From contig CAVOQY010000013.1 in the NCBI GenBank assembly GCA_963698465.1, forward strand, positions 486,687-550,686: a stretch of DNA of 64,000 nucleotides, in the 5' to 3' direction. Of this stretch, positions 1 through 58,332 are shown one piece after another (the first letter of the stretch is position 1; the number at the start of each line of letters is the position of its first letter). This stretch comes from an uncultured delta proteobacterium (lineage in GTDB: Bacteria > Desulfobacterota > Desulfobacteria > Desulfobacterales > UBA2156). The notes under the pieces were generated by a model that saw only the letters and a list, made by a program, of their open reading frames with translations, was not told the origin of the DNA and did no database searches. The position numbers and the translations under genes are program-made.

Positions 1-139
1 CCACGCTGGTGCACCAAGCGACCTTCTTCTTTGCCGACTTGGAAGCCTCGTCCAGTTCATAGTAATAATCGGCCATGAACTTGCCGAGATCTTTTGCCGT
101 TTTCAAACGCCGAATCACGATCTCTTTTTCCTGTTCCAT
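1..139 (-). CDS. 2-hydroxyacyl-CoA dehydratase family subunit (HgdA/B, FldB/C, BcrB/C-like), N-terminal part; runs off the window edge
   Basis: Not in the ORF track. Manual translation from ATG at 139 (GGAGG SD at ~147-152) gives MEQEKEIVIRRLKTAKDLGKFMADYYYELDEASKSAKKKVAWCTSV. The KVAWCTS motif and the position after an activase fit this family. Confidence 0.7.
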   Translation of the reverse strand, partial: MEQEKEIVIRRLKTAKDLGKFMADYYYELDEASKSAKKKVAWCTSV

Positions 140-300
140 TTATGCTACCTCCCTGAAGTATTGGTGTTGCCTCAAATGCTTTCAACCCCGACTGACCGGC
201 TGCTTCCCAGGATCCCGTCTGTATTGCAACCGGCCCTCGGTCCTCCCGGCGCCACCGATGGATCCGACTCGTCGATGACAGGAGGCAAGCGTCCGGGCAA

Positions 301-1137
301 TCAGGTTTTCTGCTCCGACTCCAAAGCATACAGGGCGGCGCCGACGGCGCCGGTCAACTGGGGGTGCGGAGGAACCAGAACCGATCTTGCGATCTGATCT
401 TCCGTCATCTGAACCAGATAAGGATTGTGGGCCACCACCCCGCCGGTCATGACGACTCTTTCCGTCAAGGAATCCATCTCCAGGATCCTTTTGACCACCG
501 AATAGAACAGCCCCTTGACGATGTCTTCGATCTTCTTGCCGCCGCGGATGTTTTCCAGGACTTCGGTGGCCGAAAAAACCGTGCAGAAACTGCCGAGCTT
601 CACCATGTCCCCGGACTTGCGGGCCAGCCCGTCCATCTCCTCCAGCGGGATGTCCAGACGGGCGGACATCTCTTCCAGAAATGCGCCGGTGCCGGCGGCG
701 CACTTGCGGTTCATCTTGAAGCTGAGCCGGCGCCCCGCGTCATCCAGTTTGATGATTTTATTGTCCTGTCCGCCGATGTCGATGATGGTGATCGCTTCCG
801 GGAAATAATGGTAACATCCCTTTCCATGGCACCCGATTTCGGTCCGGGTATCCATGGAAAAGGCGACGTTCTTGCGGCCGTACCCGGTGGAGACCGTATA
901 GGAGACGTCTTCTGAATTACGCCCGGCCATGCGAAGGGAAGCCTTGAGGCAGGCATCCGCGGTGGCTTCAAAGTCGGTTCCGGATTTCAGGACCTCCCAG
1001 CCGAGCAGATTCAAACCCGCATCCAGAAGCGCCACCTTGGTTCTGGAGGAGCCGACATCCACCCCGGCAAAGAGCCGCCCCGGCTTCGATCCCTGGGTCT
1101 GTTGGCTTCTTGTAGATTTCTTTGTCTCGGCTGCCAA
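301..1137 (-). CDS. acyl-CoA dehydratase activase (HgdC/BadF/BadG/BcrA/BcrD ATPase, 4Fe-4S)
   Basis: Motifs GVDVGSSRTK, STGYGR, IIDIGGQDNK, MNRKCAAGTGAFLE, SFCTVF, TGGV, GAVGAAL. Confidence 0.93.
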   Translation of the reverse strand: MAAETKKSTRSQQTQGSKPGRLFAGVDVGSSRTKVALLDAGLNLLGWEVLKSGTDFEATADACLKASLRMAGRNSEDVSYTVSTGYGRKNVAFSMDTRTEIGCHGKGCYHYFPEAITIIDIGGQDNKIIKLDDAGRRLSFKMNRKCAAGTGAFLEEMSARLDIPLEEMDGLARKSGDMVKLGSFCTVFSATEVLENIRGGKKIEDIVKGLFYSVVKRILEMDSLTERVVMTGGVVAHNPYLVQMTEDQIARSVLVPPHPQLTGAVGAALYALESEQKT

Positions 1138-1164
1138 GCCCTCTCCGATAAAGCCGGGTCCCGT

Positions 1165-2112
1165 TTAAAATTTGGATTCCAATCCTTTGACCAGGGAACG
1201 CAGCGTGGTGTTGTAAGGGGTGGGTACCCCTGCCCGTTCCCCGTATTTTACGAACTTCCCGTTGATGAAATCGATTTCCGTGAGGCGCCGGTTCTCGATG
1301 TCCATCAGCATGGACGGCTTATGATCGCCGGCATGGCTCATGTAATCCATCGCATGGGTGTAGTAATCCCACCCTAAGGAAATTTCGTTGGCCCGGGCCA
1401 CCTGGATGCATTCCTTGACCAGGGAATCCACGATCTTGAAGACGATGGGGTCATTCATGGCCTGCGCCATGGTCAGACCGGTGACGGCGCACACCGGGTT
1501 CATGGAGGCGTTCATGATGCTCTTCCTCCAGACCATGGAAACAATCTGGTCCGTATGCCGGGTTTCCAGCCCCCCACGGGTCAGGGCATCGGCGATTTTG
1601 ACGGCGGGCGCCTTCGAGTCGGGGTCGAGTTCCTGAAGGAAATGGGGGGGATGGTGAAACGGCATCTTGACATGGGCCGGACCCAGAAGGCCGCAGCCGT
1701 AATTGACCACGGCGCGCATGGAAGCCTTCTTTCCCAGGACCTTGGCGATTTCAAGCTCCGTATCGATCCCGTTCTGCCAGCTCACGACCACCAGGCCGTC
1801 CCGGTGGAAATCCTCGATGGCAGAGACGATCAGGGGCAGGACATTGGCCTTCACGGTGATGAAAATGACATCGGGATTGATGTCCGCGAGTTCATCGACG
1901 CTGGTACAGGTGGCGCTTACGGTTTGCGTGAGGCTCTCCGCCCCTTCAATGATGATGCCTCTTCCCACCGCCGGTGCCACGAGGTCCGGGATCACATCGC
2001 ATAACACGACTTCATAACCGCCCTTGGCTAAAAAAGCCGCCACGATGCATCCCACCGGCCCCGCCCCGATGACGGCAAAGGAACGGGGACCAACTGTCGG
2101 CTTCTTTTTCAT
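1165..2112 (-). CDS. panE: ketopantoate reductase (PanE/ApbA) family oxidoreductase
   Basis: GAGPVG Rossmann motif, FITVKA, SWQNGI, WRKSIMNASMNP, KPSMLMDIENRRLTEIDFING. Confidence 0.9.
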   Translation of the reverse strand: MKKKPTVGPRSFAVIGAGPVGCIVAAFLAKGGYEVVLCDVIPDLVAPAVGRGIIIEGAESLTQTVSATCTSVDELADINPDVIFITVKANVLPLIVSAIEDFHRDGLVVVSWQNGIDTELEIAKVLGKKASMRAVVNYGCGLLGPAHVKMPFHHPPHFLQELDPDSKAPAVKIADALTRGGLETRHTDQIVSMVWRKSIMNASMNPVCAVTGLTMAQAMNDPIVFKIVDSLVKECIQVARANEISLGWDYYTHAMDYMSHAGDHKPSMLMDIENRRLTEIDFINGKFVKYGERAGVPTPYNTTLRSLVKGLESKF

Positions 2113-2203
2113 CGCTCATCCTCTTTCCCCAAAGGGCATTCCCCTGTCCCCGGCATTAAGCCCGCATTCCGAAATGCGGATGCCAGGCTCAAAGATCATC
2201 CCT

Positions 2204-2650
2204 TCAGCTTTCGGTTTCCAGCATTCCGAACGCTTTGGCATCCAAAACACGGATTCCCTTTTTTTTGAGGATCTCCACGGCTCTTTCGTTGTCGCTGAAA
2301 CGGAAGATCATCACTGCTTTTTTTGAGGAAAATCCGGTAAATGCATAAGTATAAAGGGCGTGCACCTTGGCATCCAACAAATATTTCAGCATCTTGGCAA
2401 GGCTTCCAGGCTTATCCTCGATTTGAGCCGCCACCACCTCGTTGATCTGGGCGGGCAGGTGTTTTTTCATCAGGATCCGTCGGGTCGTGGCCACATCCGA
2501 AACGAGAAGGCGAAGCAGACCGAAGCCCCCTCCCGTTTCCACCAGATTCAGCGCCCGCAGGTTGATCCCGGCGTCTCCCAGGGCCTTGGTGACCTCATAG
2601 AGGCGCGCGGGAGAGTTTTCGATGGAAATGGATACTTGTTTGAGCTTCAT
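2204..2650 (-). CDS. tandem ACT-domain protein
   Basis: QVSISIENSPARL...GINLRAL and IEDKPGSLAKML repeats, typical of double-ACT proteins often linked to acyl-CoA ligase loci. Confidence 0.85.
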   Translation of the reverse strand: MKLKQVSISIENSPARLYEVTKALGDAGINLRALNLVETGGGFGLLRLLVSDVATTRRILMKKHLPAQINEVVAAQIEDKPGSLAKMLKYLLDAKVHALYTYAFTGFSSKKAVMIFRFSDNERAVEILKKKGIRVLDAKAFGMLETES

Positions 2651-2837: not shown

Positions 2838-2866
2838 TTAACAGTTAATCACATTCTAACTATAAT
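2838..2866 (+). promoter_or_regulatory. near-consensus sigma70 promoter TTAACA-N17-TATAAT facing antisense into the MFS gene
   Basis: TTAACA at 2838-2843, TATAAT at 2861-2866, 17-nt spacer. Confidence 0.5.
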
Positions 2867-2870
2867 GTGA
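2849..2870. promoter_or_regulatory. palindromic operator candidate TCACATT-N8-AATGTGA
   Basis: Perfect 7-bp arms at 2849-2855 and 2864-2870, with inner TA/TA symmetry. Confidence 0.5.
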
Positions 2871-2925
2871 CTACACAGGGGAGCCGGTGAAGTCAAGAAA
2901 AAATCGATCCAGGGGATCCGATTCC

Positions 2926-4197
2926 TCAGGGTCCCTCCTTGGGTGTCAGGGTTTCCCTGATGAACAGGCTGGAAAGCGTGGCGACAACGGCACAGGCAAA
3001 AAGGATGGAAAAAGCCGCCTGATAGGCTTCAACGGGAAACACCCCCTCTCCCCGGCCGTATCGTTCCAGGGTGTACCCCAAAACCGGCTGGAATACCGCT
3101 CCCCCTGCAAAAGGGAACAGGTTGACCAGGCCGGTGGCTGTTCCGGCGATTTTCACAGGGAAAAGCTCTTTGTTTGCCGTAAATCCAATCACCACGATGG
3201 CGCTGGAAAAGACTCCCAACATCAGGCAGACCCCATAAAGTCCTACAACGGGAATTCGGTCCGGGAAAAAAGCCAGGAAGAAAGTGGTGGCCAGCATCAG
3301 GGCGCTGGAAAGGACAATGACGGGTTTTCGGGCCTTGACGACGGAACTGGAGACAAAGCTGAGAAAAGGGCTTCCCACGATCATCCCCACCGCCAGCATG
3401 GAAAGGATCTGTCCCGCCTGGTCCCGGCTCATGCCGTAGACGTGCATCAGGTAGGGTCCTCCCCAAAGACCCCCGAAGGAAAAAAAGACGGCGCAGTCAA
3501 AAAAGAACCAGACCGCAAGCGGCCAAAAAGCCGGGGTCTTCAGAACATGCCGGACCCCTTCCATGAGGTTCGAAAAGTCCTGTCCTGAAGGTCCCTTCCT
3601 CTCGGGTGACGTGTCCTTTGCAGGTTCCGGGCGATCCTGAACAAAACCCCAAACCAGGACAGCCAAAACCAGCGTGAAAACCCCCACCGTGGCAAAGGAC
3701 ATCCGCCATCCGATCTTCGCGCTCAGCAGGGCCAAGGGGGTGGCTGCCGTCAGGGATCCGATTCCGCCCATGGCCATCAGGATACCGGTCATGAAGGCGA
3801 ATTCTTTCTGGGTAAACCACTCGGCCAAGATTTTCATGGCAGGGACGAAGAGCATGGCCACCCCGAAACCCACCAGGGTACGCCCTGCGATGGCCCAAAA
3901 AACGGAGGGCGCCGCACCCAGCAGGACGGAGCCCAGAAAGGCCACGATGAAAAAGACGGTGATGGTTTTACGGGGTCCCCAGGAGTCGGACAGAAGCCCT
4001 GCAGGAAGCTGCATCACGGCGTAAGGGTAAAAATACGCGGCCCCTAAAAATCCCGTCAGCGCGCCGCCGGCCTTCAAGTCCCGCATCATGTCCACCGCCA
4101 CGACGGCAGGGCAAAGCCGATGAAAATAAACCAAAACGTACCCAAAGGCGATGATCCAGAAAATGAGCCACCGGTATCCCGCAGACTGTCGGTTCAT
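2926..4197 (-). CDS. MFS transporter
   Basis: About 12 hydrophobic segments and motif A-like GLLSDSWGPRK. Confidence 0.92.
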   Translation of the reverse strand: MNRQSAGYRWLIFWIIAFGYVLVYFHRLCPAVVAVDMMRDLKAGGALTGFLGAAYFYPYAVMQLPAGLLSDSWGPRKTITVFFIVAFLGSVLLGAAPSVFWAIAGRTLVGFGVAMLFVPAMKILAEWFTQKEFAFMTGILMAMGGIGSLTAATPLALLSAKIGWRMSFATVGVFTLVLAVLVWGFVQDRPEPAKDTSPERKGPSGQDFSNLMEGVRHVLKTPAFWPLAVWFFFDCAVFFSFGGLWGGPYLMHVYGMSRDQAGQILSMLAVGMIVGSPFLSFVSSSVVKARKPVIVLSSALMLATTFFLAFFPDRIPVVGLYGVCLMLGVFSSAIVVIGFTANKELFPVKIAGTATGLVNLFPFAGGAVFQPVLGYTLERYGRGEGVFPVEAYQAAFSILFACAVVATLSSLFIRETLTPKEGP

Positions 4198-29544: not shown

Positions 29545-30879
29545 ATGAGCATCTTGGATCTGAGCGTGATCATCATCCTGTTGGTGCTGCTCGGAGCGAT
29601 GGCGGCCTATATCCCCGTTTACATCTGTCTTTTTTTCACGGGCGCAATTGGCTTTGTCCTCTTCGCTCCGGAAACTCAAACCCTGATGCTCGTGGAGAGT
29701 TTTTTCAAGAGCATGGACAACTTCGCGCTGGTGGTGGTGCTGTTCTTCATTCTTTGCGGCAATATCATGACCGCCGGCAGCATCGTGGACAAGCTGATCA
29801 AAATGGTCAACACGCTGGTCAGCTGGCTTCCCGGCGGGCTGGGAATGGCCGGCTGCCTGGGCTGCGGCCTGTTCGGGGCGATTTCCGGTTCTACGGTGGC
29901 CACCGTGGTCGCCCTGGGCGGTTTTATGATCCCCGCACTGATTAAAAACGGCTATCCCATGAAATACACCCTCGGCCTGATGACCACGTCCCCGAATCTG
30001 GGAATCATCATCCCGCCGAGCATCAGCATGATTCTTTATTGCATGATCACCAATGTCTCGCTTCAGGGGCTTTTTCTGACGGGTTTCGTCCCTGGGATTC
30101 TAGTCATGCTGCTGGTATGCCTCTATTCGTATTTCATGTTCCGGACCGACGAGGGCATTGTACGCCTTCCGGTACCGAACTTAAAGGAATTCCTGGCTGT
30201 CTTCAAAGAGGGCTTCTGGTCGCTGATGCTGCCTGTGATCATTTTTGCAGGAACGTTCTCAGGGATGTTCACGGCCGACGAAGCGGCCGTGGTGGCCTGC
30301 ATCTACGCTTTCATCGTGGAGCTGTTCATCCATCGAACCATGAAAATCAAGGATGTGAAGAAAGTCATCGTCAGTTCGGCTGTCACCTCGGCCACGCTTC
30401 TGATCATCGTGGCAGGCGCCACCTGCTTCGGCCGCTACCTGACCTTCGAGAATGTGCCCTCAAGGATCGCCGAGTCCGTCATCGAAAACATCCATTCCCC
30501 CTTGATGTTTCTCCTGGCGATCAACTGCTTCCTGCTGGTGGTCGGCATGTTCATGGACGTGATTTCGGCAACGCTGATCATCGGGCCGGTGTTGATCCCC
30601 TTGCTTCCCACCTTCAATGTGGACTTCATGCACTTCGGGTTGCTGATGACGGTGAACCTCGCCATCGGCTACTGCACGCCGCCGGTGGGGGTCAGCATGT
30701 ATATCACGGGCGCGATGGCCAACAAGGACATCCTCTACGTCACCCGGGCCGTGCTCCCTTTCTTGATCATCCAGATCGCCGTGTTGCTTTTCATGACCTA
30801 TCTGCCGGATGTGGTGCTGTGGCTGCCCAAGCTGATGGGGTTTTGGGAGGCCACTGAGGGCGGCACACCGGCGCTTTAG
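29545..30879 (+). CDS. dctM: TRAP transporter large permease DctM (no adjacent dctP/dctQ)
   Basis: FGAISGSTVATVVA, GIIIPPSI, PGIL, ADEAAVVA, TPPVG. Confidence 0.9.
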   Translation: MSILDLSVIIILLVLLGAMAAYIPVYICLFFTGAIGFVLFAPETQTLMLVESFFKSMDNFALVVVLFFILCGNIMTAGSIVDKLIKMVNTLVSWLPGGLGMAGCLGCGLFGAISGSTVATVVALGGFMIPALIKNGYPMKYTLGLMTTSPNLGIIIPPSISMILYCMITNVSLQGLFLTGFVPGILVMLLVCLYSYFMFRTDEGIVRLPVPNLKEFLAVFKEGFWSLMLPVIIFAGTFSGMFTADEAAVVACIYAFIVELFIHRTMKIKDVKKVIVSSAVTSATLLIIVAGATCFGRYLTFENVPSRIAESVIENIHSPLMFLLAINCFLLVVGMFMDVISATLIIGPVLIPLLPTFNVDFMHFGLLMTVNLAIGYCTPPVGVSMYITGAMANKDILYVTRAVLPFLIIQIAVLLFMTYLPDVVLWLPKLMGFWEATEGGTPAL

Positions 30880-53882: not shown

Positions 53883-56800
53883 ATGAAAAAAAATACCGTC
53901 AGCCCTTTTCCTGGCTTCAATGTTGGCTCCGGACCCGGCAAACCCCTGAGGGTCCTGGGCATTTGTCTCGGGGCATCCACCGTTTCCATTGTGGAAGTTT
54001 TTTGGCCCGGTGAGGCCTCCGGGCCGGATTCCGGAGGTTCATCCGCCCATGCGCCGAAAATCGTCAAACATGCCCTGTTTCCCCATGAGGGAAATCCCAA
54101 AGAGACCCTTCTCCGCGCCCTGAAATCCGTGGACCCGAACGCCTACGACCGTATCGCCGCCACCGGGAGGCGATTCAGGAGGTTCGTCCGTCTGTCCTCC
54201 ATCCCGGAACCCGAGGCGGTGGAATACGCTTACGGCTTCACCAAGCCTCCGGGCGTCGACTGTCCCGCCGTGGTCTCCGCAGGCGGTGAGACGTTCATGG
54301 TTTACGTGCTGAACAGCCGTGGCGAGATCTCCAACGTGCTGACCGGGAACAAATGCGCGTCAGGTACGGGGGAATTTTTTCTTCAGCAGCTGCGGCGGAT
54401 GGACGTCTCTCTCCAGGAGGCCGCCTGCTTCGCGGCGTCTGAATCGCCCCATCATGTTTCGGGCCGTTGCTCCGTCTTCTGCAAATCCGACTGCACCCAC
54501 GCCACCAACAAGGGGATCCCCCGTTCCCAGGTCACCGCGGGCCTTTGCAAGATGATGGCCCACAAGATCCTCGAACTGCTCAAGAAAGTGGAAAAGAAAA
54601 ACGTGATGATCGTCGGGGGGACCGCCCAAAACCAGACGATGGTGGCGTATCTGAAAAAGGAGATCTCGGGCCTGATCGTCCCGGAAGAGGCCTCCTTTTT
54701 CGAAGCCCTCGGTGCGGCGTTGTGGTCTCTGAACTCGGGAAACCCTCCCCTTCCCCGGCTTTTCAAGCCTGATCCGGGAAGAGGTGAGCCCTTTCGACAC
54801 CCTGCCGCCGCTGAGCGAATCCGCCGATCGCGTCTCTTTCAAGACTGTCGAAATGGGAGTTCCCCGACCGGGGGATGTCTGTATTTTGGGGCTTGACGTG
54901 GGTTCCACCACCACCAAAGCGGTTCTGGTGCGGACCCGGGATCAGGCCATACTGGCCTCCATCTACCTGCGCACCTCCGGGGATCCGGTGGGCGCCTCCC
55001 GGCAGTGCTACCGGCATCTCCTCGAAAGCATCGGCAAGCACGTGGACCCCTCCGAGATTTGCATCGAAGGGCAGGGAGTCTGCGGGTCAGGGCGCCAAAT
55101 CGCAGGCCTTCACGCGCTCACGGACGGCGTCATCAACGAAATCATCGCCCATGCAGCCGCCGCCGTTTATTTCGATCCCGATGTGGACACGATTTTCGAG
55201 ATCGGCGGTCAGGACGCCAAATACACCTACATCATCAACGGCGTCCCTTCCGATTATGCCATGAACGAAGCCTGTTCGGCCGGCACCGGATCTTTCCTGG
55301 AGGAATCGGCCCTCGAGACCCTGAACATCCCCATGGAGGAAATCGCCGAAATCGCGCTTTCCGGCCGACGCCCCCCCAATTTCAATGACCAGTGCGCCGC
55401 CTTCATCGCCTCCGACATCAAAAACGCCATTCACGAGGGCATCCGCCGGGAAGATATCGTGGCGGGGCTGGTCTATTCCATCTGCATGAATTACACCAAT
55501 CGGGTCAAGGGCAACCGCCCCGTGGGCGAAAAAATCTTCATGCAGGGCGGCGTCTGCTACAACCGTGCGGTCCCTTTAGCCATGGCCGCCCTGGTGGGAA
55601 AGCCCATCATCGTGCCGCCGGAGCCCGGCCTCATGGGCGCCTTCGGAGTGGCCCTGGAAGTGCAGAAGCGCATCGAAAACGGCCTGATGCAAAAAAGCCG
55701 CGTGGATCTTTCCGCCCTCATCGAACGGGAGGTTGTCTATCGGAAGCCTTTCACCTGCAAAGGGGGCAAAGCGCGATGCGACCGAGGGTGCCGGATCGCA
55801 GTCATCGAACTGGAAAAAAAGACCTACCCCTTCGGCGGCGCCTGCAACCGGTACTACAACCTCCGCCACCATATCCGCCATGACATCGAAAAACTCGATT
55901 ACGTGCGGCAACGGCAACGCCTCGTCTTCGAAAAATACGCGCCTCAGGCAACACCGGATCCAGGAACGGCCCCCAGGGGAAGGATCGGTTTCAACCGAAG
56001 CTTCCTGGTCAACACCTACTATCCCCTTTATGCCGCCTTTTTTTCCAGCCTGGGATTTCAGCCTGTCATTCCGAAAACCCCTACCCAGCAGGGCATCGAC
56101 GCAAGGGGCGCCCCGTTCTGCTATCCGGCAGAGCTGGCCCACGGGTTTTTCCATGCCCTCATTGCGTCCGAAGACCCGCCTGAGACGCTCTTTCTGCCCC
56201 ATTTCAAAGCAGTGCCCCTTCTGGAAAAAAACTCGGGCTCCCAAGTCTGCCCCCTGGCACAGGGGGAGACCTATTATCTGAGAAGCGCCTTCAAAAGAGA
56301 GCTGGAACAGCTTCGGCACAAAGGCACCACCCTGCTGACGCCGGTCATCGACCTGACATCCGGCATGGTCGCCGCACGAAACCCCCTGGTCCAGTGCGCT
56401 GTGGAGATAGGCATTTCCAAAACCCGAGCCGAAGCGGCGTTTGGATTCGCCATAGAGGTACAAGACGCTTTCCGGGAAGAAATCCGCTCCACGGGAAAGG
56501 CCCTGCTCGAGGATCTGGAAAAGGACCCGGAAAAGATGGCCGTGATTCTTTTCGGCCGCCCCTACAGCGCCTTTGCCGACGAAGCCCACATGGGGATCCC
56601 CCACAAGCTGGCCTCCAGGGGGGTGACCGTGATCCCCCTGGATTTCCTGCCCGTCGACGGAGATCTTTCCAAGCGGCACATGTACTGGGGGATGGGACAG
56701 CTCATCCTCAAAGCGGCAAGGTACGTCAAGAACCATCCCCAGCTTTTCGGAACCTACATTACCAACTTCAGTTGCGGTCCGGATTCTTTCCTTATCGGCT

Positions 56801-58332
56801 ATTTCCGCGAAGTCATGGGTCGGAAGCCCTCCTTGACCCTCGAACTCGACAGCCACACGGCCGACGCGGGCTTGGAGACCCGCATCGAGGCCTTCCTGGA
56901 CATCGTGGCGTCCTATCGTCAATTGAGTGCCCGGCGGCAAATTCCGATGGTTCGGAAAACCTTTTTGGCTTCCATGGTCGTTTTGGGAAACGGAAAACCC
57001 CACGTGATCACTTCCCGGGGAGAGACACTGCCCATGACGGACCCGCGGGTTTGCCTTCTTTTTCCGTCCATGGGCAACCTCGCTTCCGAGTCGATTGCCG
57101 CGATATTCCAGGGGAGCGGGTATCATGCCAAGGCCCACCCCCCCTCCGATGAAGGCGTGCTGAAATTGGGCCGGGCCAACACCACCTGCAAGGAGTGCCT
57201 GCCGTTGATCCTGACCACCGGAACCTTGCTCAACTACATCCACAACGAAAAAAAGGAGGATGAAGTCCTGGTCTACTTCATGCCCACCGGATCGGGCCCC
57301 TGCCGCTTCGGGCAGTACTCCATCTTCATGGAGGATTTGATCCGGAGATTCGAAATCCCGGACACCGCAGTCCTTTCCCTATCCTCGGACAATGCTTACA
57401 TGGGCATGGAAAACGGTTTTCAAAAGCGGGGCTGGTGGTCGGTGGTCATTTCGGATGCCATGGAAGACATCCGCTCCATGCTCCTGGCCAATGCCAAGGA
57501 TCCGGAGCAGGCCATGAAGTTCTTTTACCGGGAGTGGGGCTGTGTCCTGGAAGCCCTCAAGTCCGGGGAGTACGCACCCATCCGCACCCAGCTCTTGGAG
57601 AGCAGCCGGCGCCTCGGGTCGATTCCCGTGAAACTGCCCCCGGAAGAAGTCCCCACCATCGCTCTTTCCGGAGAGATCTTCGTTCGCCGGGATCCCTTGT
57701 CACGCCAGTTCATCACGGAACGGCTCGCCGAAAACGGGTTCGCGGTCATCTGCTCCCCCATCGCCGAATGGATGCGCTATTCGGATTTCACCGTGAGACA
57801 CGGCTACAGCAACTTCATCCCCTCTTTGAAGGAAAGGCTGGGTCTTTTCATCAAGGATTTTCACATGAATTGGTACGAAAGGGGAATCAAGAACACGCTG
57901 GCCCGGTCCGGGCTCCTGACGCCCACCTTCACCGACATCAAGAAGATCCTCCAGGCCGCTTCACCCCACATCGCACCGGACTTGGCCGGAGAAGCGGTGC
58001 TGACCGTGGGCAGCGCCCTGGTGGACATCGCCAGCCACGCCTGCGGTGTCATCGCCATCGGCCCTTTCGGATGCATGCCCAACCGTCTGTCCGAGGCCAT
58101 TCTTTCCGAATCCATGACGCGGGAAGGAAAGCTTGCAGCCGATCCTGCCAACCCCAGGCTGAAAACGGTTCTCACAGACGTGGAAGACCTCCCTTTCCTG
58201 GCCATCGAAAGCGACGGCTCCCCCTTCCCCCAGCTCATCACGGCCAAGCTGGAAGCCTTTTGTCTCAGGGCTAAAAGGCTTCACGAAAAGATGCGCTCCG
58301 GTGAAAGAAAAGCCGGCCGCAAGCGGCTCTGA
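53883..58332 (+). CDS. large multidomain CoA-substrate-specific activase / 2-hydroxyacyl-CoA dehydratase-like protein, apparent +1 frameshift at ~54735-54740
   Basis: Two BadF-type ATPase domains (GNKCASGTGEFF; GLDVGSTTTK, GGQDAK, NEACSAGTGSF), then PFCYPAE, NFSCGPD, CLPL, GPCRFG, GPFGCMP. The +1 frame ETLPFPGFSSLIREEVSPF bridges the two ORFs. Confidence 0.85.

What the first reader, a model, noticed from the sequence alone, without database searches (positions are those of the whole stretch)
1..2650. ACT-PanE-activase-dehydratase operon: PanE may be a 2-hydroxyacid dehydrogenase rather than a pantothenate enzyme
Seen: co-oriented, closely spaced ACT protein, PanE homologue, HgdC-type activase and dehydratase subunit, with no panB/C/D in the window. 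Established: (R)-2-hydroxyacyl-CoA dehydratases need an (R)-2-hydroxyacid, and some PanE-family enzymes (e.g. Lactococcus lactis PanE) are D-2-hydroxyacid dehydrogenases. Inference: a reductive 2-oxoacid to enoyl-CoA branch (Stickland-like electron sink or aromatic/branched acid metabolism) with an amino-acid-sensing ACT protein. The upstream co-oriented MFS may supply the substrate.
Basis: partly seen in the sequence, partly recalled or inferred. Interest (0 to 1): 0.55.

Follow-up and report, generated by a model that had tools for sequence, protein, structure and literature searches.

The report
Phenylpyruvate-to-benzoyl-CoA operon of sulfate reducers
These genes form a conserved cluster in sulfate-reducing bacteria that most likely breaks down the side chain of phenylalanine-derived acids with a vitamin-B5-enzyme look-alike and an unusual one-subunit radical enzyme, which may explain how strict anaerobes degrade phenylacetate without the known pathway.

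Summary
Observation confirmed. ACT, PanE-like, activase and the first 139 bp of a dehydratase gene are co-oriented; beyond the window follow an ADP-forming ligase, an AMP-forming ligase and a thiolase. The PanE is not the pantothenate enzyme: a second panE sits beside panB. The four genes are orthologues (60-75% identity) of Desulfococcus multivorans Dmul_24850-24880, already annotated in 2016 as phenyllactate dehydratase alpha, activator, 'putative phenylpyruvate reductase' and ACT, in a cluster induced by phenylacetate and phenylpyruvate. Of 301 Desulfobacterales genomes, 113 of 118 with this PanE have the dehydratase, and 103 of 109 with the ring-opening enzyme Oah have this PanE. An upstream 11-bp tandem motif recurs before bamB and had-oah. 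Best reading: NADH reduction of phenylpyruvate, CoA ligation, radical dehydration to cinnamoyl-CoA, beta-oxidation to benzoyl-CoA; not a Stickland sink. The dehydratase has no beta subunit (predicted homodimer). Phenylacetate may enter through PaaK and reversed IorAB. The MFS link is weak; ACT sensing is untested. This scan noted the cluster before on other DNA.

The parts
1..139 (-). 5' end of the lone alpha-type (HadB/FldB-like) 2-hydroxyacyl-CoA dehydratase subunit, 416 aa; continues outside the window to C13:485575. Orthologue of Dmul_24850 (75%).
   Evidence: Only PF06050 match in the genome; best PDB hit HadB 3o3m_A by sequence (E 5e-52) and fold (TM 0.86); C92/C132/C360 invariant, S45/E63 match HadB S37/E55.
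301..1137 (-). ATP-dependent activase (HadI/FldI/HgdC type), 278 aa. Orthologue of Dmul_24860 (69%).
   Evidence: TIGR00241 above cut-off, PF01869.
1165..2112 (-). PanE-fold 2-oxoacid reductase, probably NADH-dependent (R)-phenyllactate dehydrogenase, 315 aa. Orthologue of Dmul_24870 (63-64%).
   Evidence: D39 and H264 invariant in 81 of 81 clade members, Asn at the H264 column in the panB-linked paralogue.
2204..2650 (-). ACT-domain-pair protein, 148 aa; ligand and target unknown. Orthologue of Dmul_24880 (60%).
   Evidence: PF19571; PDB 2f06 E 2e-18.
2844..2875 (-). Conserved operator-like site: three tandem 11-bp, partly palindromic units (consensus unit TATAGTTACAT), about 220 bp upstream of ACT; related sites lie upstream of bamB and of had-oah.
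2926..4197 (-). MFS transporter, 423 aa; neighbour in a minority of relatives, probably a separate transcript.
   Evidence: PF07690; 9 of 64 loci; hairpin and motif lie between it and ACT.

Best explanation
A peripheral catabolic module that feeds phenylpyruvate into the benzoyl-CoA pathway. (1) The PanE-fold enzyme reduces phenylpyruvate with NADH to (R)-phenyllactate. (2) The downstream AMP-forming ligase (or the ADP-forming one) makes phenyllactyl-CoA. (3) The activase uses ATP to push one electron into the [4Fe-4S] cluster of the dehydratase, a homodimer of catalytic-type subunits, which removes water to give cinnamoyl-CoA. (4) A 679-aa hydratase/dehydrogenase fusion (contig C1) and the operon's thiolase split this to benzoyl-CoA and acetyl-CoA. 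(5) BamB, Dch, Had and Oah, all in this genome, open the ring. Phenylpyruvate comes from phenylalanine, from uptake, and possibly from phenylacetate through PaaK and IorAB running as a carboxylase. Shown here: gene content, orthology, synteny, co-occurrence, shared motif, lack of a beta gene. From a paper: induction on phenylacetate and phenylpyruvate, growth on phenyllactate. Inferred: every enzyme activity, the substrate, the direction of flux, the homodimer.
For: Orthology to D. multivorans Dmul_24840-24880 by exact coordinates and 60-75% identity. PMC5109826: proteins of these clusters formed specifically on phenylacetate and phenylpyruvate; growth on phenyllactate; PadB and PadEFGHI absent. 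The hydratase/dehydrogenase fusion of that cluster is 99.7% identical to the copy in the cinnamate beta-oxidation cluster, the thiolases 73%. In 301 genomes: PanE clade 118, dehydratase 121, both 113; fusion 90, of which 87 have the PanE; Oah 109, of which 103 have the PanE; PadI over cut-off in 3. Second and third best motif sites in the genome lie before bamB and had-oah. Second panE beside panB. GlcDF-like genes replace PanE in three genomes. This genome has a histidine but no phenylalanine ammonia-lyase. Homodimer model 0.83 against best control 0.47; mark reached by 20 of 30 solved pairs and 1 of 23 single chains; runs agree in at least 92% of contacts, pLDDT at least 93; may reflect likeness to HadBC/DCCP.
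Against: No assay of any of these enzymes was found. The 2016 paper reads the three genes in the opposite direction (phenyllactate to phenylpyruvate). The D. magnum dehydratase, reductase and ACT are in that strain's constitutive proteome. The GlcDF replacement suggests hydroxyacid oxidation in that family, and those loci lack ligase and thiolase. The studied dehydratases are heterodimers. 31 of 118 PanE genomes gave no fusion match. Genomes are related, so co-occurrence counts overstate independence. PDB ranking is weak: the panB-linked paralogue scores as high against 2ew2/3wfi (119-125 bits) as the window protein (113/100). Both ligases and the thiolase are frameshifted in this assembly.
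Confidence: 0.65

Rival explanations
1. Same enzymes, opposite direction (the published reading): cinnamoyl-CoA or phenyllactate is turned into phenylpyruvate, IorAB makes phenylacetyl-CoA, and an unknown step leads to benzoyl-CoA; the ADP-forming ligase recovers ATP. A biosynthetic version (benzoyl-CoA to phenylalanine) belongs here too.
For: PMC5109826 words it so. ADP-forming ligase in 57 of 69 loci. GlcDF-like dehydrogenase plus a metallo-hydrolase in three genomes. Constitutive in D. magnum. From memory: cinnamate and phenylacetate were both found in phenylalanine-grown D. toluolica (Woehlbrand 2013, not held).
Against: It ends at phenylacetyl-CoA with no known exit: PadI in 3 of 301 genomes. 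It does not explain the cinnamate-type beta-oxidation copies in the phenylacetate cluster. No phenylalanine ammonia-lyase here. Alpha-hydration of cinnamoyl-CoA and NAD-linked oxidation of phenyllactate are uphill (own knowledge). Prephenate dehydratase is present in 35 of 41 relatives.
Confidence: 0.17
2. The lone subunit and activase are an ATP-driven reductase (benzoyl-CoA reductase-like or double-cubane-like) acting on an aromatic or enoyl CoA ester of the central pathway.
For: Near one-to-one occurrence with Oah and shared motif with bamB. One subunit plus activase is the DCCP/YjiM layout (PMC7317905). Invariant extra Cys303 aligns with a Cys of DCCP's C-terminal half.
Against: Closer to HadB than to MbdO, BzdO or DCCP by sequence and fold. 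The 7-Cys motif is not met; NF040772 59 bits against cut-off 350. The genome has a class II reductase BamB. Cluster induced by phenylacetate and phenylpyruvate.
Confidence: 0.08
3. Stickland-type electron sink or branched-chain route: other 2-oxoacids are reduced, dehydrated and reduced again to saturated acids that leave through the ADP-forming ligase.
For: Parts list resembles had/fld operons; best structural relative is the 2-hydroxyisocaproyl-CoA enzyme; this genome has an acyl-CoA dehydrogenase at the far end of the co-directional run (C13:472880-474022).
Against: Acyl-CoA dehydrogenase in 1 of 69 downstream and 0 of 55 upstream flanks; thiolase in 43 of 54; tight link to aromatic ring genes; the hosts are mostly Desulfobacterales, a sulfate-respiring order.
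Confidence: 0.07
4. Ordinary ketopantoate reductase that happens to sit in the operon.
For: Passes TIGR00745; keeps the Lys/Asn/Ser/Glu catalytic set (K197, N201, N205, S267, E279).
Against: A better-scoring panE (258.6 bits) lies next to panB; no panB or panC near it in 80 loci; 183 of 301 genomes lack this clade.
Confidence: 0.03

Closest known systems
Desulfococcus multivorans Dmul_24830-24900 cluster (Doerries 2016, PMC5109826); Desulfonema magnum dnm_025890-025920 (PMC11887813, data S1)
   Same: Orthologous genes in the same order (ACT, reductase, activator, alpha subunit, ligase), 60-75% identity; annotated as phenyllactate dehydratase and putative phenylpyruvate reductase.
   Different: Here IorAB-PaaK and the fusion enzyme are on another contig, and an ADP-forming ligase and the thiolase are in the operon. 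The paper reads the flux as phenyllactate to phenylpyruvate, leaves the exit to benzoyl-CoA open, and in the passages read does not discuss the missing beta subunit.
Clostridial FldH/FldA/FldBC/FldI (C. sporogenes) and LdhA/HadA/HadBC/HadI (C. difficile; PDB 3O3M)
   Same: 2-oxoacid reduction, CoA activation, ATP-initiated radical dehydration; three-Cys cluster site, Ser and Glu of HadB kept.
   Different: PanE-fold reductase, ligases instead of a family III CoA transferase, no beta subunit, no conserved acyl-CoA dehydrogenase; the enoyl-CoA appears to be oxidised, not reduced.
PanE-fold D-2-hydroxyacid dehydrogenases of Enterococcus and Lactococcus (bioRxiv 10.1101/2024.01.05.573888; PDB 2EW2; 3WFI is the E. 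faecium D-mandelate dehydrogenase from memory)
   Same: Top two PDB hits; acidic residue after the second strand; His-x-Pro-Ser-Met motif.
   Different: Only about 100-113 bits; separate clade; no tree was built, so common origin of the activity is not shown.
DCCP/YjiM double-cubane proteins and class I benzoyl-CoA reductases BzdNO/MbdON
   Same: Same fold family; DCCP is a homodimer with one activase.
   Different: No 7-Cys motif; alpha-type sequence; no partner subunit or second ATPase subunit.
Pad pathway of Thauera and Aromatoleum (PadJ, PadBCD, PadEFGHI)
   Same: Same overall task for phenylacetate: side chain removed to give benzoyl-CoA.
   Different: Alpha-oxidation; PadI found in 3 of 301 Desulfobacterales genomes. 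The route proposed here lengthens the chain by one carbon and then uses beta-oxidation.

Membership tests
Ketopantoate reductase (housekeeping PanE) | ApbA/ApbA_C fold and catalytic Lys/Asn/Ser/Glu | tested here: met
Ketopantoate reductase (housekeeping PanE) | Link to panB/panC or sole panE of the genome | tested here: not met
   Second panE beside panB; 0 of 80 loci with panB or panC.
Ketopantoate reductase (housekeeping PanE) | Asn at the pantoate-binding position (E. coli Asn241, from memory) | tested here: not met
   His264 in 81 of 81; Asn in the panB-linked paralogue.
PanE-fold D-2-hydroxyacid dehydrogenase | NADH-type acidic residue and His-x-Pro-Ser-Met motif as in 2EW2/3WFI | tested here: met
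   D39 and H264 invariant; alignments. The paralogue also has an acidic residue there (Glu, then Arg), so D39 alone does not separate them.
PanE-fold D-2-hydroxyacid dehydrogenase | Measured reduction of 2-oxoacids other than ketopantoate to the (R)-acid | not testable with these tools
   No assay found in the papers held.
(R)-2-hydroxyacyl-CoA dehydratase (HadBC/FldBC type) | Alpha subunit with three cluster Cys and active-site Ser/Glu | tested here: met
   C92, C132, C360 in 70 of 70; S45 and E63 align with HadB S37 and E55; TM 0.86 to 3o3m_A. Below the HadB equivalog cut-off (219 of 750).
(R)-2-hydroxyacyl-CoA dehydratase (HadBC/FldBC type) | ATP-dependent activator | tested here: met
   TIGR00241 above cut-off; adjacent in 73 of 76 loci.
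(R)-2-hydroxyacyl-CoA dehydratase (HadBC/FldBC type) | Beta subunit (heterodimer) | tested here: not met
   Single PF06050 match in G000, G001, G003, G004, G020, G022, G040 (94-100% complete, four families); none beside it in 80 loci.
(R)-2-hydroxyacyl-CoA dehydratase (HadBC/FldBC type) | Measured radical dehydration | not testable with these tools
   Needs an anaerobic assay.
Double-cubane cluster protein (DCCP/YjiM) | 7-Cys motif CX19CX18-19CX29CX166-170CX32-34CX32C (PMC7317905) | tested here: not met
   Conserved Cys are 43, 92, 132, 204, 303, 360, 366; no Cys where DCCP's sixth lies; NF040772 59 of 350 bits.
Class I benzoyl-CoA reductase | Two catalytic-module and two ATPase subunits; family cut-offs | tested here: not met
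   One of each; BcrB 138 of 487, BzdO 89 of 449, BzdQ 124 of 380 bits.
Stickland reductive branch | Linked acyl-CoA dehydrogenase/ETF that reduces the enoyl-CoA | tested here: not met
   1 of 69 downstream, 0 of 55 upstream flanks, searched with one query at 30% identity.

The most novel reading that the evidence does not exclude
Aromatic-degrading sulfate reducers break down phenylacetate by one-carbon elongation: PaaK activates it, IorAB carboxylates phenylacetyl-CoA to phenylpyruvate with reduced ferredoxin, this operon turns it into cinnamoyl-CoA with a homodimeric radical dehydratase that has no beta subunit, and beta-oxidation gives benzoyl-CoA. This would fill the step left open in D. 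multivorans and would be the usual route in nearly all Desulfobacterales that hold the benzoyl-CoA pathway.
Probability: 0.45. Interest if true: 0.82.

Novelty: new variant of a known kind. Interest (0 to 1): 0.6.

Why it matters
How strict anaerobes without PadB and PadEFGHI turn phenylacetate into benzoyl-CoA is stated as unclear in the D. multivorans paper. The reading here gives a complete route from genes already seen by proteomics, with a simple test: CO2 fixation into the side chain. It concerns about 40% of the Desulfobacterales genomes sampled, key degraders in sediments. A working alpha-only dehydratase would be new for the radical dehydratase/reductase family, where the beta cluster is thought to store the catalytic electron. 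It also flags many hundreds of proteins (1977 hits at E 1e-40) as probably misnamed '2-dehydropantoate 2-reductase'.

Tried and rejected
Genome-wide IorA co-occurrence: uninformative, 238 of 301 genomes have it; only its position next to the operon (26 of 55 loci) counts. Double-cubane reading of the extra cysteines: rejected; Cys43 is also in MbdO, Cys366 varies in distant members, the sixth ligand is missing. Missing pheA and aroC in this assembly suggested a biosynthetic role, but the two genes are neighbours and present in most congeners, so an assembly gap is likelier. Two Por-like clusters were considered as phenylglyoxylate dehydrogenase: the C9 subunits are far below the PadE and PadI cut-offs; the PadI search scored only five candidates per genome. 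PadB itself was not searched. Literature searches for carboxylation of phenylacetyl-CoA as a catabolic route found nothing; Woehlbrand 2013, the Desulfonema paper and a guessed PMC id for Porat 2004 were not available, so prior proposals cannot be excluded. The regulator of the motif was not identified. No phylogenetic tree was built.
Full report
Observation. The minus strand carries ACT (2204-2650), a PanE homologue (1165-2112), an activase (301-1137) and the first 139 bp of a dehydratase-family gene. The window is G000:C13:486687-550686. To its left the run goes on with the rest of the 416-aa subunit, an ADP-forming acyl-CoA synthetase, an AMP-forming ligase, a thiolase and an ABC transporter; the ligases and the thiolase are frameshifted in this assembly but whole in the congener L003. 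Relatives are mostly Desulfobacterales.

The PanE is not the pantothenate enzyme. A second panE, 24% identical, lies directly before panB on C4 and scores higher on TIGR00745 (258.6 against 186.6 bits); panC is also on C4. No panB or panC lies near the window's clade in 80 loci. The clade keeps the catalytic residues but has His264 in 81 of 81 sequences, like the His-Tyr-Pro-Ser-Met of its top PDB hits 2ew2 and 3wfi, while the panB-linked copy has Asn. Enterococcus and Lactococcus PanE-fold enzymes are NADH-dependent D-2-hydroxyacid dehydrogenases (10.1101/2024.01.05.573888). The PDB ranking alone is weak, since the paralogue scores as well against those entries. In three genomes of one family that lack this PanE, GlcD- and GlcF-like genes stand before activase and dehydratase: another type of 2-hydroxyacid dehydrogenase in the same slot.

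Conservation. Downstream of the PanE come the activase (73 of 76 loci), the dehydratase (70 of 72), the ADP-forming ligase (57 of 69), the AMP-forming ligase (48 of 60) and the thiolase (43 of 54). The gene directly upstream is PaaK in 38 and ACT in 35 of 74 loci. PaaK-type loci usually have IorAB and often Oah, Dch, Had and a 679-aa hydratase/dehydrogenase fusion; ACT-type loci often have a TRAP system or the MFS. This genome holds the other half on C1 (Oah, Had, Dch, fusion, IorAB, PaaK) and bamB on C15. Among 301 genomes of the order, 118 have the PanE clade and 121 the dehydratase, 113 both; 87 of 90 with the fusion and 103 of 109 with Oah have the PanE (overlaps counted by hand from the lists). 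Kinship inflates these numbers, but the pattern spans dozens of families.

It is a known, untested cluster. Genome G057 matches the published coordinates of D. multivorans Dmul_24850 and Dmul_24870; identities to the window genes are 75% (alpha), 69% (activator), 63% (reductase) and 60% (ACT). Doerries 2016 (PMC5109826) names them phenyllactate dehydratase alpha and activator, putative phenylpyruvate reductase and ACT protein, reports specific formation of the clusters' proteins on phenylacetate and phenylpyruvate, growth on phenyllactate, absence of PadB and PadEFGHI, and calls the step to benzoyl-CoA unclear. In D. magnum the genes with the same names are constitutive (PMC11887813, data S1); G092, probably that strain, has the same gene order.

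Direction. The paper reads the genes as phenyllactate to phenylpyruvate. Several results favour the reverse. The phenylacetate cluster of D. multivorans carries a 99.7% copy of the fusion enzyme assigned to cinnamate beta-oxidation, and a thiolase 73% identical to the one that releases benzoyl-CoA; the operon thiolases of relatives are 65-68% identical to both. PadI passes its cut-off in only 3 of 301 genomes, so phenylacetyl-CoA has no known exit. This genome has a histidine ammonia-lyase but no phenylalanine ammonia-lyase to supply cinnamate. NADH reduction, AMP-forming ligation and dehydration to a conjugated ester all run downhill (own knowledge). For phenylacetate the entry would be PaaK and then IorAB as carboxylase; the ferredoxin-linked pyruvate reaction is reversible (-13 kJ/mol, PMC8473912), arylacetate carboxylation by Ior is known from biosynthesis in other anaerobes (own knowledge), and IorA3B3 were formed on phenylacetate too, which the paper put down to gratuitous induction. 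Against: the GlcDF loci, the constitutive D. magnum proteins and the ADP-forming ligase fit the oxidative direction as well.

The lone subunit. It is the only PF06050 protein in seven genomes of 94-100% completeness from four families. It is alpha-type: HadB is the best match by sequence and fold, above MbdO, BzdO, DCCP and all beta subunits. The three cluster cysteines and the HadB-type Ser and Glu are kept; the double-cubane motif is not. Cys303 is invariant in the lone clade and absent from HadB and from a beta-partnered alpha subunit; its role is unknown. A homodimer model scored 0.83 against a best control of 0.47 (mark reached by 20 of 30 solved pairs, 1 of 23 single chains; at least 92% contact agreement; pLDDT at least 93), with an interface at residues near the cluster cysteines; the pass may come from likeness to HadBC and DCCP. 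I infer that each cluster can serve as electron store for the other.

Regulation. A 32-bp site of three 11-bp units lies at 2844-2875 and in nearly all ACT-type loci. A matrix trained without the closest relatives ranks this site first in the genome (44.5 bits), then sites 300 bp before bamB (28.3) and before had-oah (26.7); column-shuffled matrices reached 26 bits in 2 of 40 trials. G092 has sites before ACT and before had-oah; D. multivorans has weaker ones before bamB. The operon thus seems to belong to the benzoyl-CoA regulon and to have its own promoter, apart from the MFS. The ACT protein resembles PDB 2f06; its ligand is untested.

Verdict. It works like the clostridial phenyllactate route but is not a member of it: PanE-fold reductase, ligases, no beta subunit, oxidative exit. 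What I did not find in the papers held is the alpha-only enzyme, the elongation route for phenylacetate, the near one-to-one link with Oah and the shared motif. New variant of a known kind; interest 0.6.

Noticed in passing
L001:8000-14100 (G000:C13:478000-484100); also C1:1909-2683 and C4:536000-539000: Dense frameshifts in both ligases, the thiolase and an ABC binding protein, in a second panB and in a Por-like cluster; whole in congeners where checked, probably assembly errors.
   Followed up: partly
L096:5351-11164, L099:9562-15452, L100:5379-11165: In one family the lone dehydratase and activase follow a metallo-beta-lactamase-fold protein and GlcD/GlcF-like genes, without PanE, ligase or thiolase; possibly another substrate or the reverse direction.
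   Followed up: partly
L102:1245-9060: A lone alpha subunit (54%) and activase lie directly after a 2192-aa polyketide/PUFA-synthase-like gene.
   Followed up: no
L105:155-7380 and L094:5294-10312: Copies of activase plus lone alpha subunit placed after a dihydrolipoamide dehydrogenase gene instead of PanE.
   Followed up: no
window 29545-30879: Solitary TRAP large subunit, 66% identical to D. multivorans DctM4 (the phenylacetate-induced system); a full dctPQM copy lies on C5 beside a CoA-transferase-like gene.
   Followed up: partly
window 54784-58332: 1182-aa ORF with further activase-type domains (26-30% to the window activase), apparently a multi-domain activase fusion.
   Followed up: no
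whole genome G000: No prephenate dehydratase or chorismate synthase found; the two are neighbours and present in most congeners, so probably an assembly gap.
   Followed up: yes
L092:36-7618: Six tandem near-identical genes of about 310-320 aa (plus a shorter copy) and a transposase next to the operon in an 8.0-Mb genome.
   Followed up: no
window 2838-2866: A strong sigma-70-like match (11 of 12) on the plus strand overlaps the operator motif and points into the 3' end of the MFS gene; may be a by-product of the motif.
   Followed up: no
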